Origin: a virus
Direction: 5' to 3' (one strand)
IMG/VR virus record: IMGVR_UViG_3300005077_000936
Span: 28,727-92,726 of that record
Length of the DNA: 64,000 nucleotides
Shown: in pieces, positions 2,728 through 2,848 of the stretch
Layout: each line of letters starts with the position of its first letter
How positions within the stretch are numbered: position 1 is the stretch's first letter
Notes under the pieces: model-generated
Database searches by the model: none
Told to the model about the DNA's origin: nothing
The model's input: the letters and a program-made list of their open reading frames with translations, nothing else
Position numbers and translations under genes: made by a program

Positions 2728-2848
2728 GGGGAGATGGCGGAATGGTAAACGCAATTGACTGAACATCAATCAAAAAAAAGTAGATGCTTTCTACTTACAA
2801 AACATCTAAGCCGCAAGGCTACTACAGGTTCGAATCCTGTTCTCCCCA
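2728..2848 (+). tRNA. non-canonical tRNA-like RNA, anticodon GAA (nominally Phe) on a class II (Leu-like) body, 53-nt variable region
   Basis: Acceptor GGGGAGA/TCTCCCC, D GCG/CGC, anticodon stem ATTGA/TCAAT with loop CTGAACA, T-arm ACAGG-TTCGAAT-CCTGT; variable region 2771-2823 ends in AGCC-GCAA-GGCT. Confidence 0.75.

What the first reader, a model, noticed from the sequence alone, without database searches (positions are those of the whole stretch)
2728..2848. Second expanded tRNA carrying the same insert architecture at the same position
The body is Leu-like (GGCGGAATGGTAAACGC D-arm, A73, GCAA-capped variable hairpin), but the anticodon is GAA (Phe) with a pyrimidine at position 37. Directly 3' of the anticodon stem sits an A8 tract, the hairpin GTAGA-TGCTT-TCTAC and TTACAAAA. 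This is the same layout as in the first tRNA, with a different hairpin sequence. The same architecture in two unrelated tRNA bodies argues for selection on the insert rather than decay.
Basis: partly seen in the sequence, partly recalled or inferred. Interest (0 to 1): 0.78.

Follow-up and report, generated by a model that had tools for sequence, protein, structure and literature searches.

The report
tRNA-shaped partner RNA of phage Ro60
This oversized "tRNA" in a crAss-like gut phage is most likely not a decoding tRNA but a tRNA-shaped small RNA carrying a conserved tag, one of a large undescribed family of RNAs that always sit beside the phage's Ro60-like RNA-binding protein gene.

Summary
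Window 2728-2848 scores as a tRNA (Rfam 56.6 bits). It has all four arms, a GAA anticodon with C37, and a 53-nt variable region.

That region holds a 7-bp hairpin, AAGUAGA/UCUACUU, followed by single-stranded ACAAAA. The neighbour at 2356-2477 carries the same module.

In 51 related crAss-like loci, ACTTACAA occurs 280 times on the coding strand and 22 times on the other. 322 of 338 copies are intergenic.

In five complete relatives, in crAss001 and in the window's own genome, the motif is found almost only beside a protein whose predicted fold matches Ro60 (TROVE plus vWA).

The three variable bases before ACUU covary with an AAGUNNN partner: 130 pairings observed against 34 +/- 4.5 after permutation.

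When the partner lies downstream, the helix encloses ordinary tRNAs or circularly permuted tRNA shapes. Rotated into tRNA order, these align column for column with the window's two RNAs.

Best reading (about 0.55): these are Y-RNA-like (YrlA-like) tRNA mimics in a non-permuted strand order, and the module is the Ro-binding site.

Rivals are real tRNAs with a giant variable arm, a splicing signal, or a promoter.

Earlier follow-ups in this scan reached the same reading on other crAss-like genomes. I found no paper describing it.

The parts
2728..2848 (+). Expanded tRNA-like RNA 2 (the finding): full cloverleaf with a 53-nt variable region
   Evidence: Rfam tRNA 56.6 bits, model positions 1-71. 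Fold z = -5.5. Sequence read.
2754..2770 (+). Anticodon-like arm AUUGA-CUGAACA-UCAAU: U33, GAA, C37 (a pyrimidine where tRNAs have a purine)
   Evidence: Homologous bodies in relatives carry UAG, CGU, GAA, CAA, CGA or GUG, or a 5-nt loop.
2778..2796 (+). Module helix AAGUAGA / UCUACUU (7 bp) closed by the loop UGCUU (2785-2789)
   Evidence: Covariance model R1 gives 18.7 bits, E = 0.14, at 2774-2805; this sequence was not in the seed.
2797..2802 (+). Conserved single-stranded ACAA(A/U)A directly 3' of the helix
   Evidence: Logo of 303 copies: ACTTACAA, then W, then A at 71%.
2809..2820 (+). GCAA-capped hairpin AGCC-GCAA-GGCU, a remnant of a class II (Leu-type) variable arm
2356..2477 (+). Expanded tRNA-like RNA 1 with the same module (helix 2409-2426, ACAAA 2427-2431); anticodon loop UUUAGGA
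   Evidence: Rfam tRNA 56.7 bits. R1 gives 30.3 bits, E = 3e-4; this sequence was in the seed.
3434..3461 (+). Hairpin GACACUU-ACACUAAGGGGUAG-AAGUGUC in the 5' UTR of the Ro60-like gene. Same helix type, with the ACA(C) motif inside the loop.
   Evidence: The orthologous hairpin in L056 is GCUACUU-ACAAAUAAAGGGUA-AAGUAGC, 60 nt before the start codon. 37 of 45 loci carry the motif within 90 nt upstream of the gene.
3492..5342 (+). Ro60-like protein gene (616 aa): helical N-terminal ring domain plus a vWA domain with a DxSxS MIDAS motif
   Evidence: AlphaFold2 pLDDT 80. The top 12 Foldseek PDB hits are all Ro60/TROVE entries (1yvr, 2nvo, 9nen, phage phiLo 9l5y/9kop), E = 3e-5 to 4e-4 over about 600-650 columns. 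There are 684 homologues.
995..1060 (+). Open stem-loop unit AAGCUACUU-ACAA...(41-nt loop)...AAGUAGCUU followed by AUUUUUU, upstream of ORF 1082-1474
   Evidence: window_997_1051. The orthologous unit lies before the homologous ORF in L056.
5572..5579 (+). ACUUACAA 3 nt before the ATG of the HU-like gene. No clear pairing partner, so membership is uncertain.

Best explanation
The element is a tRNA-shaped non-coding RNA. It belongs to a family of small RNAs that serve the phage's Ro60-like protein, making them functional analogues of bacterial Y RNAs of the YrlA type.

**Two modules.**
- A tRNA body with an intact D/T elbow and an open acceptor stem.
- A tag: a 7-bp helix whose conserved strand reads NNNACUU, followed by single-stranded ACAA(W)A. 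I infer that the tag is the docking site for the Ro60-like ring.

**Relation to relatives.** In most relatives the same helix is formed by the 5' and 3' ends of the transcript. It encloses a circularly permuted tRNA shape or a whole tRNA, which is the classical Y-RNA layout. In this phage lineage the RNAs lie between ORFs of one operon. The strand order is that of a normal tRNA and the tag helix is closed by a 4-5-nt loop in the variable region.

**Inferred steps.**
- Host RNase P and a 3' tRNA-processing enzyme cut the RNA out of the operon transcript.
- The tag binds the Ro60-like protein.
- The tRNA body recruits a tRNA-binding partner.
- A copy of the tag in the Ro60-like gene's own 5' UTR allows feedback on its translation.

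**Shown here:** the anatomy, the conservation, the covariation, the restriction to the Ro60-like locus, and the Ro60 fold.

**Inferred, not shown:** transcription, processing, protein binding and the effector.
For: - **Ro60 fold.** The neighbouring 616-aa protein folds like Ro60 over its full length.
- **Strand and location bias.** In 51 related loci ACTTACAA is 280 (+) against 22 (-), and 322 of 338 copies are intergenic.
- **Confinement to the locus.**
  - In five complete relatives of 96-104 kb, nearly all GNYACTTACAA copies sit in the Ro-like 5' UTR or in a cluster of up to about 1 kb just after the gene.
  - All 14 hits of model R1 fall in that cluster.
  - The own genome shows the same pattern, with all seven +strand copies between 25.9 and 34.3 kb of 98.7 kb.
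  - crAss001 has four TTACTTCAA copies only in the unannotated gap after TROVE gene Gp96.
- **Position relative to the gene.** 37 of 45 loci have the motif within 90 nt upstream of the gene and 40 of 45 within 1.5 kb downstream.
- **RNA-level pairing.** The variable triplet before ACUU is complementary to an AAGUNNN partner in 130 units, against 33.6 +/- 4.5 (maximum 46) in 1000 permutations. Four of six pairs of the closed hairpin show double changes.
- **Cargo of the helix.** When the partner lies 45-110 nt downstream, the helix encloses 24 standard tRNAs and at least 25 permuted tRNA shapes.
- **Homology with the window.** Rotated into tRNA order, the permuted units align colinearly with the window's two RNAs.
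- **Not decoding.**
  - This RNA has C37.
  - The homologous body carries different anticodons in different phages.
  - The L056 homologue has a 5-nt loop, and many members have no anticodon arm.
- **Precedent.**
  - YrlA RNAs are permuted tRNA mimics encoded next to Ro60, also in phages.
  - Only the 5' strand of their Ro-binding helix is conserved (PMC4201824; bioRxiv 10.1101/312249).
  - A phage Ro60 binds adjacent Y-like RNAs (PMC12135203).
- **Expression timing.** The crAss001 TROVE gene is an early gene (PMC8375218).
Against: - There is no binding or expression data for this phage.
- The Ro60 similarity is at fold level only (TM 0.27-0.55, 9-12% identity). Pfam and PDB sequence searches find nothing.
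- No Rfam Y-RNA family matches even at E <= 5.
- In the window the tag helix is an internal hairpin, not the terminal stem that defines Y RNAs.
- Many permuted relatives keep canonical 7-nt anticodon loops with U33 and R37. Many have N-CCA right after the acceptor 3' strand. This looks like real tRNA function.
- The same stems flank ordinary tRNAs and are followed by U-tracts. A general role in transcript ends or processing, unrelated to Ro60, is therefore possible.
- Model R1 scores this particular copy weakly (E = 0.14).
Confidence: 0.55

Rival explanations
1. They are real, chargeable tRNAs with a giant variable arm. The tag helix is simply an oversized class II variable arm. Permuted genes give two-piece tRNAs, held together by that helix, once RNase P and a 3' nuclease open the acceptor linker. 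Because Leu- and Ser-type synthetases ignore the anticodon, one body with many anticodons could replace host tRNAs destroyed by defence nucleases, or could recode codons.
For: - The cloverleaf and elbow are intact and the Rfam tRNA score is 56.6 bits.
- The D arm is Leu-like, A73 is present and a class II hairpin remains.
- Most permuted relatives have canonical anticodon loops with U33 and a purine at 37.
- Many acceptor linkers begin with N-CCA.
- M. smegmatis YrlA is cut by RNase P and receives CCA (bioRxiv 10.1101/312249).
Against: - This RNA has C37.
- The L056 homologue has a 5-nt loop.
- Many members lack an anticodon arm or place the module inside it.
- A 53-nt variable region is far outside the range of known tRNAs.
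- This reading does not explain empty stem-loop units, the copy in the Ro-like 5' UTR, or the strict linkage to the Ro60-like gene.
Confidence: 0.2
2. The module is a processing signal. It would act as an intron in non-permuted genes and as a circularisation junction in permuted ones. It is cut out and the ends are ligated to give ordinary tRNAs, as with bulge-helix-bulge introns, split tRNAs and the permuted tRNA genes of Cyanidioschyzon.
For: - The same helix occurs at different positions of otherwise good tRNAs: the variable region, and the anticodon stem at 29/30 in L046_8601 and L037_2777.
- Permuted, non-permuted and flanking arrangements coexist, as in archaea.
- Bacteroides has RtcB (control list).
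Against: - There is no bulge-helix-bulge geometry. The single-stranded flanks vary in length (5-25 nt) and have no conserved boundaries.
- The complete own genome has no RtcB, tRNA-intron endonuclease or RNA ligase.
- An RNA-library contig of a relative runs through two module-bearing RNAs without skipping the module. This is weak evidence, because contigs may come from DNA.
- Degenerate members could not yield a tRNA after splicing.
Confidence: 0.08
3. The motif works on DNA as a promoter for the injected virion RNA polymerase or the host polymerase, and the partner plus U-tract is a terminator. The 'inserts' would then be unit boundaries that happen to fall inside tRNA-like genes.
For: - The motif is strand-specific and intergenic, and it precedes tRNAs, small RNAs and the Ro-like gene at a short fixed distance.
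- Partners are followed by U-rich tracts.
- G is 88% conserved at the first helix base, preceded by a T/A-rich stretch.
- TAGGATACTTACA is identical to the -10/discriminator region of the T7 A1 promoter as printed in bioRxiv 10.1101/2020.03.07.982082.
Against: - Covariation with partners 45-110 nt away requires the motif to be transcribed and paired as RNA.
- The common variants GTTACT, GCTACT and GTCACT lack the A that sigma-70 -10 elements need, and no -33/-35 block is conserved.
- In the window the two helix strands are 4-5 nt apart, inside RNAs whose acceptor stems pair across them.
- Other genes of these genomes lack the motif.
- Early transcripts of phi14:2 had no common upstream motif (same preprint).
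Confidence: 0.07
4. The two genes are decaying tRNA pseudogenes that picked up unrelated junk insertions by chance.
For: C37 and a body/anticodon mismatch. Default ARAGORN does not call them.
Against: All stems are intact. The same module is conserved with compensatory changes across dozens of genomes whose Ro-like proteins are only 42-57% identical.
Confidence: 0.02

Closest known systems
YrlA-type bacterial and phage Y RNAs with Ro60/Rsr (Chen et al. 2014, PMC4201824; Wang et al. 2018, bioRxiv 10.1101/312249; Thermus phage phiLo Ro60-Yrl, PMC12135203)
   Same: - Small RNA genes lie directly beside a Ro60/TROVE-vWA gene.
- They are modular: a helix with one conserved strand, plus a tRNA-like body with an intact D/T elbow.
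- Relatives of this RNA are circularly permuted tRNA shapes with a closed acceptor stem, as in YrlA.
- There are several copies per locus.
- Phage examples are known.
   Different: - The strand order here is that of a normal tRNA, with an open acceptor stem. The presumed Ro-binding helix is an internal hairpin in the variable region, not the terminal stem at the anticodon-stem position.
- A complete anticodon arm is kept.
- The conserved motif (NNNACUU + ACAA) is unrelated to described Ro-binding sequences.
- No Rfam Y-RNA model matches.
- The protein is a very divergent Ro60 that Pfam does not detect.
Class II tRNAs (Leu, Ser, Tyr) and allo-tRNAs with long variable arms (the allo-tRNA comparison is from my own knowledge, Mukai et al. 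2017, not checked here)
   Same: Cloverleaf, Leu-like D arm, A73, and an extra helix emerging from the variable region. One body type occurs with many different anticodons.
   Different: The variable region is 53 nt against roughly 10-24 nt. Position 37 is C. The motif beside the helix is conserved and single-stranded. The genes are linked to a Ro60-like gene. Relatives are permuted or lack the anticodon arm.
Circularly permuted, split and intron-containing tRNA genes processed at bulge-helix-bulge motifs (Cyanidioschyzon merolae, Nanoarchaeum; from my own knowledge; permuted algal tRNA genes are alluded to in 10.1101/312249)
   Same: Permuted and non-permuted gene orders coexist, with one helix motif marking the junction.
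   Different: There is no bulge-helix-bulge and no splicing enzymes in the phage. Many members could not give a functional tRNA. This setting is a bacteriophage of Bacteroidota.

Membership tests
tRNA (Rfam RF00005) | Cloverleaf with acceptor, D, anticodon and T arms and the conserved elbow nucleotides | tested here: met
   56.6 bits against a gathering score of 29, model positions 1-71. U8, G18G19 and UUCGAAU T loop read.
tRNA (Rfam RF00005) | 7-nt anticodon loop with U33 and a purine at position 37 | tested here: not met
   The loop is CUGAACA: U33 is present but position 37 is C.
tRNA (Rfam RF00005) | Variable region within the range of class I/II tRNAs (4 to about 24 nt) | tested here: not met
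   53 nt lie between the anticodon stem and the T stem (2771-2823).
tRNA (Rfam RF00005) | Aminoacylation and use in translation | not testable with these tools
   Needs charged-tRNA sequencing or acid-gel northerns.
Y RNA / YrlA | Encoded next to a Ro60 (TROVE + vWA) gene | tested here: met
   The RNA lies 644 nt upstream of ORF 3492-5342, whose model matches Ro60 structures over its full length. The same linkage holds in 45 loci, 5 complete genomes and crAss001.
Y RNA / YrlA | tRNA-like effector domain with a D/T elbow | tested here: met
Y RNA / YrlA | Ro-binding helix formed by the RNA's 5' and 3' ends, with the acceptor-like stem closed by a loop (permuted order) | tested here: not met
   In the window the helix is an internal hairpin and the acceptor stem is open. 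The feature is met in at least 25 permuted relatives.
Y RNA / YrlA | Match to a curated Y-RNA covariance model | tested here: not met
   No Y-RNA family appears among Rfam hits for window 900-6000 at E <= 5.
Y RNA / YrlA | Physical binding to Ro60 | not testable with these tools
   Needs co-immunoprecipitation or gel-shift.
Intron-containing or permuted pre-tRNA (BHB type) | Bulge-helix-bulge motif at the junction | tested here: not met
   The junction is a 7-bp helix flanked by single strands of variable length (5-25 nt), with no 3-nt bulges.
Intron-containing or permuted pre-tRNA (BHB type) | Splicing endonuclease and RNA ligase available from the phage | tested here: not met
   PF01974, PF01139 and PF09414 are absent from the complete own genome. 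A host RtcB remains possible.
Intron-containing or permuted pre-tRNA (BHB type) | Module-free (spliced) RNA product | tested here: inconclusive
   Only assembled contigs of relatives could be laid. One runs through the modules unspliced, and there were no informative joints.

The most novel reading that the evidence does not exclude
The tagged tRNA shapes may be a phage-made set of anticodon-diverse tRNA look-alikes: one Leu-like or other body, a canonical anticodon loop, and a fast-changing anticodon. Orthologues in sister phages carry GUU, UUU, GUC, GAU and UCA. The tag would load them onto a Ro60-like ring. There they could act as decoys or traps for host tRNA-cutting defence nucleases. Alternatively, as chargeable two-piece or long-armed tRNAs, they could replace or re-read codons during infection. 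On this reading, permuted and non-permuted gene orders are interchangeable ways of encoding one three-dimensional object.
Probability: 0.15. Interest if true: 0.9.

Novelty: new variant of a known kind. Interest (0 to 1): 0.72.

Why it matters
Crassvirales are the most abundant phages of the human gut, and their early genes include a TROVE/Ro60-like protein of unknown role. This analysis ties that protein to a large, unannotated family of small RNAs: tRNA-shaped, permuted, or plain stem-loops. All carry one covarying helix plus an ACAA tag.

It also shows that the "expanded tRNAs" that tRNA finders miss or mislabel belong to that family.

If the reading is right:
- Y RNAs extend to a new strand order, with an open acceptor stem and a retained anticodon arm.
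- There is a natural series linking ordinary tRNA genes, permuted tRNA mimics and Y RNAs, which bears on the proposed tRNA origin of Y RNAs.
- The question becomes testable in a cultured system. crAss001 has TROVE gene Gp96 and four tagged RNAs in a 900-nt unannotated gap.
- It warns against counting these genes as decoding or suppressor tRNAs in studies of phage code reassignment.

Tried and rejected
- **DNA and protein BLAST against the 'phages' collection** returned no match for the window or for two Ro-like proteins. crAss001 was reached by accession instead.
- **The search for related loci with the single vWA protein 1476-2348** found nothing. The alignment of Ro-like homologues worked.
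- **ARAGORN's intron models** for the two genes (Leu(tag) with a 50-nt intron, 'Pyl(cta)' with a 29-nt intron) were rejected. They need mismatched anticodon stems and contradict the Rfam alignment.
- **The 8-mer as a general window-wide motif** is not enriched in the window.
- **RNA evidence.** No RNA holder was listed for window 900-5600. For a relative's RNA cluster, only assembled contigs of RNA libraries could be laid. They cover both the gene and the RNA cluster. They cannot show ends, strand or splicing, and may include DNA.
- **The nearest homologue P0002** has no DNA on file.
- **phi14:2.** Its preprint reports two abundant, stable early non-coding RNAs, but the GenBank numbering differs and no TROVE gene is annotated in the first 12 kb. 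I did not pursue the link.
- **MAFFT alignment of modules with different loop lengths** was out of register. Only the loop-4 subset was used for the model. That subset was chosen for pairing, so the 100% pairing is by construction. The non-circular test is the permutation.

Full report
**What is there**

The window is bases 28,727-92,726 of a 98.7-kb crAss-like virus record that CheckV rates as complete.

Rfam's tRNA model matches three places. One is an ordinary tRNA-Arg. The other two are long matches at 2356-2477 (56.7 bits) and 2728-2848 (56.6 bits). Each aligns end to end with the model but has about 50 extra bases in the variable region. Default ARAGORN reports neither.

Reading the sequence confirms every detail of the finding for 2728-2848:
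- a 7-bp acceptor stem with A73;
- a Leu-type D arm (GCG-GAAUGGUAAA-CGC);
- an anticodon arm with loop CUGAACA (U33, GAA, C37);
- an A8 tract;
- a hairpin that extends to 7 bp (AAGUAGA-UGCUU-UCUACUU, 2778-2796);
- single-stranded ACAAAA (2797-2802);
- a GCAA-capped hairpin (2809-2820);
- a normal T arm.

The fold of the single sequence recovers all of this: z = -5.5, and none of 200 shuffles folds as well. The first RNA has the same order of parts, with AAGUGGC-UACA-GUCACUU followed by ACAAA.

Both lie between ORFs on the same strand, 8-28 nt from their neighbours. No terminator-like site separates them from the downstream genes. A strong terminator-like site appears only at 5499-5536.

**The neighbour is a Ro60-like protein**

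ORF 3492-5342 (616 aa) has no Pfam or PDB sequence match. It does have 684 homologues at about 42-57% identity, mostly on contigs of about 96 kb.

An AlphaFold2 model built on 25 of them (mean pLDDT 80) was compared with the PDB. Its 12 best matches are all Ro60/TROVE structures:
- frog, human and Deinococcus Ro60;
- the Ro60 of Thermus phage phiLo.

They align over about 600-650 columns at E = 3e-5 to 4e-4, followed by vWA/MIDAS domains. TM-scores are modest (0.27-0.55) and identity is 9-12%. I therefore call this a fold-level assignment.

crAss001 has an annotated TROVE protein (Gp96), reported as an early gene (PMC8375218). It is only marginally similar in sequence to this one.

**The module is a family trait**

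I fetched 51 loci around homologues of the Ro60-like gene.

ARAGORN with intron search found about 70 tRNA-like genes of 95-202 nt. Nearly all carry a hairpin AGUNNN...NNNACU followed by UACAA.

Counting without regard to structure gave three results:
- ACTTACAA occurs 280 distinct times on the strand of the gene and 22 times on the other.
- 322 of 338 copies are outside long ORFs, although 62% of the sequence is coding.
- The logo is G (88%) - W - Y - ACTTACAA - W - A.

In five complete or near-complete relatives (96-104 kb), almost all GNYACTTACAA copies fall in two places. One lies in the 5' UTR of the Ro60-like gene. Five to seven lie in a cluster of up to about 1 kb right after it. Zero to four strays per genome occur elsewhere.

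A covariance model of the closed hairpin (R1) finds hits in those genomes only in that cluster.

The same restriction holds elsewhere:
- In the window's own genome, all seven +strand copies lie between 25.9 and 34.3 kb.
- Over 45 loci, 37 have the motif within 90 nt upstream of the start codon and 40 have one within 1.5 kb after the stop.
- In crAss001 the variant TTACTTCAA occurs four times on the gene's strand, all in the 900-nt unannotated gap after Gp96. That gap also holds a Rfam-tRNA match with an 82-nt insertion.

**The helix is real and acts on RNA**

Only about a sixth of the copies have the partner strand just upstream, forming a closed hairpin as in the window. Nearly half have a 7-bp partner AAGURNC 45-110 nt downstream, against 13% in shuffled flanks. 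That partner is usually followed by a U-rich tract.

A test that does not select for pairing is the following. The three variable bases before ACUU are Watson-Crick complementary to the three bases after an AAGU nearby in 130 units. After permuting the triplets among units, the figure is 33.6 +/- 4.5, with a maximum of 46 in 1000 permutations.

In the closed hairpins, four of six pairs show changes on both sides, including A-U to U-A at the closing pair. That alignment was chosen for pairing, so it is descriptive only.

Pairing across 45-110 nt cannot be a DNA hairpin. The motif must therefore be transcribed.

**What the helix encloses**

Of 163 distinct open units:
- 24 enclose a standard tRNA;
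- at least 25 enclose a circularly permuted tRNA shape, and about 33 of the 43 units parsed by hand look permuted;
- the rest are short stem-loops or the Ro-like 5' UTR.

The permuted order is T arm, acceptor 3' strand, short linker, acceptor 5' strand, D arm, anticodon arm.

In many lineages the 5' UTR copy pairs with codons 8-10 of the Ro60-like gene and encloses its start codon. In the window and in L056 it forms a 28-nt hairpin 30-60 nt before the start.

When the permuted units are rotated into tRNA order they align column for column with the window's two RNAs. The order of aligned parts is:
- D arm;
- anticodon arm;
- A/U-rich linker;
- AAGUNNC;
- either the transcript ends or a 4-5-nt loop;
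- GNNACUU-ACAA;
- 10-25 nt;
- T arm.

The window's "insert" is therefore the closed-loop form of the terminal stem of permuted relatives.

The closest relative with DNA on file is L056, whose Ro-like protein is 55% identical. It has the same inventory as the window (R1 E = 5e-4 and 0.018, neither in the seed):
- two non-permuted expanded tRNA-likes with the module in the variable region;
- a stem-loop unit before the homologue of ORF 1082;
- a hairpin in the Ro-like 5' UTR.

The own genome has three more units just upstream of the window, including a third expanded tRNA-like.

**Why I do not read it as a decoding tRNA**

- This RNA has a pyrimidine at position 37.
- Its Leu-like body (GGCGRAAUGGUAWACGC) recurs in relatives with anticodons GAA, CAA, CGA and GUG. 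The related body in L004 carries UAG.
- The L056 homologues have CGU in one case and a 5-nt loop in the other.
- Many members have no anticodon arm or place the module inside it.

Points on the other side:
- Most permuted members keep a canonical loop with U33 and a purine at 37.
- One orthologous group differs between sister phages only in the anticodon (GUU, UUU, GUC, GAU, UCA).
- Many acceptor linkers start with N-CCA.

These features are unexplained by a pure Ro-tether model. They keep the real-tRNA and decoy readings alive.

**Mechanism proposed**

By analogy with YrlA, I propose that the helix plus ACAA docks the Ro60-like ring and the tRNA body engages a tRNA-binding partner. The basis for the analogy is:
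- YrlA RNAs are permuted tRNA mimics next to Ro60.
- Only the 5' strand of their Ro-binding helix is conserved.
- Phage examples are known (PMC4201824; bioRxiv 10.1101/312249; PMC12135203).

In this lineage the RNAs sit inside an operon without their own U-tract ends. An open acceptor stem would let RNase P and the 3' tRNA-processing enzymes release them. That would explain the normal strand order and the closed tag helix. The tag in the Ro-like 5' UTR suggests autoregulation.

All of these steps are inference. What is shown is the anatomy, the conservation, the covariation, the locus restriction and the protein fold.

**Rivals**

- **Splicing or circularisation signal.** This is weakened by the lack of bulge-helix-bulge geometry or fixed boundaries. 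The genome also has no RtcB, tRNA-intron endonuclease or RNA ligase. Only assembled RNA-library contigs of relatives could be examined and they were uninformative.
- **DNA promoter.**
  - For it: the position of the motif before every small gene, and a 13-nt identity of the commonest variant (TAGGATACTTACA) to the T7 A1 -10 region printed in bioRxiv 10.1101/2020.03.07.982082.
  - Against it: the long-range covariation, variants that lack the -10 adenine, the absence of any upstream block, and the motif's absence from the rest of the genome.
- **Decay.** Excluded by the conservation.

**Novelty**

My literature searches found three relevant things:
- TROVE genes are noted in crAss001.
- Abundant, unexplained early non-coding RNAs are reported in phi14:2.
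- Y RNAs are described in other phages.

None describes these tagged tRNA-shaped RNAs in Crassvirales.

Earlier follow-ups in this scan reached the same YrlA-like reading on other crAss-like genomes. This is therefore a further lineage of something the scan has already met, not a first sighting.

I file it as a new variant of a known kind. It works like a Y RNA but fails three membership tests for YrlA: a terminal Ro helix, a closed acceptor stem and a match to a curated model.

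Noticed in passing
L054:552-670 (own genome G000:C1 about 25,951-26,070, upstream of the window): A tRNA-like RNA with anticodon loop CUUCAGA (UCA, which would read the UGA stop). It is enclosed by a 10-bp leader/trailer helix AGGACACUU...AAGUGUCCUU of the same family. Rfam did not call it at gathering score.
   Followed up: partly
L054:1677-1785 (own genome, upstream of the window): A third expanded tRNA-like RNA with acceptor GGGGGAG/CUCCCCC and a normal T arm. It has no clear D arm. The closed module AGUGUC-aucu-GAACACU+UACAAG comes before an anticodon-like arm.
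   Followed up: partly
window 5306-5545: The structured region right after the Ro60-like stop codon gives a sub-threshold match to the CsrC RNA family (27.4 bits against a gathering score of 61, E = 1.9e-5). It ends in a strong terminator-like hairpin at 5499-5536. It may be another partner RNA or a protein-sponge-like RNA.
   Followed up: no
window 5976-7268: An adenylosuccinate-synthetase-like gene (Pfam PF00709, E = 8e-31) lies in the replication block. Homologues sit beside the Ro-like gene in L056 and in the P0002 contigs. A possible role in modified-nucleotide synthesis was not examined.
   Followed up: no
L008, L010, L015, L018, L040 at about 7370-7630 (orthologous permuted units): Near-identical permuted tRNA shapes differ almost only in the anticodon triplet (GUU, UUU, GUC, GAU, UCA) within a conserved C-U-NNN-A-A loop. 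In L009 the whole arm is deleted. This looks like fast turnover of the anticodon alone.
   Followed up: partly
L046:8601-8713, L037:2777-2890, L019:6923-7039: Permuted tRNA shapes whose junction lies inside the anticodon stem (between positions 29 and 30) rather than in the variable region. The tRNA is otherwise well formed, for example with loop CUUGUAA.
   Followed up: no
many loci, for example L003:3684-3700: The commonest motif variant TAGGATACTTACA is identical over 13 nt to the -10/discriminator region of the T7 A1 promoter, as printed in the methods of bioRxiv 10.1101/2020.03.07.982082. It is probably coincidence, but it bears on the promoter rival.
   Followed up: no
window 1476-2348: A separate 290-aa protein with a DxSxS-type motif (phrog_2971, E = 5e-37) lies just upstream of the first expanded tRNA. 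L056 has a Pfam-VWA protein just after its Ro-like gene. These may be a second protein component of the system.
   Followed up: no
L053:13479-13569 (crAss001, minus strand): The record's pseudo 'tRNA-OTHER (taat)' is a Rfam-tRNA match with a 22-nt insertion in the anticodon loop. It lies near the transcriptional regulator at the early end of the genome.
   Followed up: no
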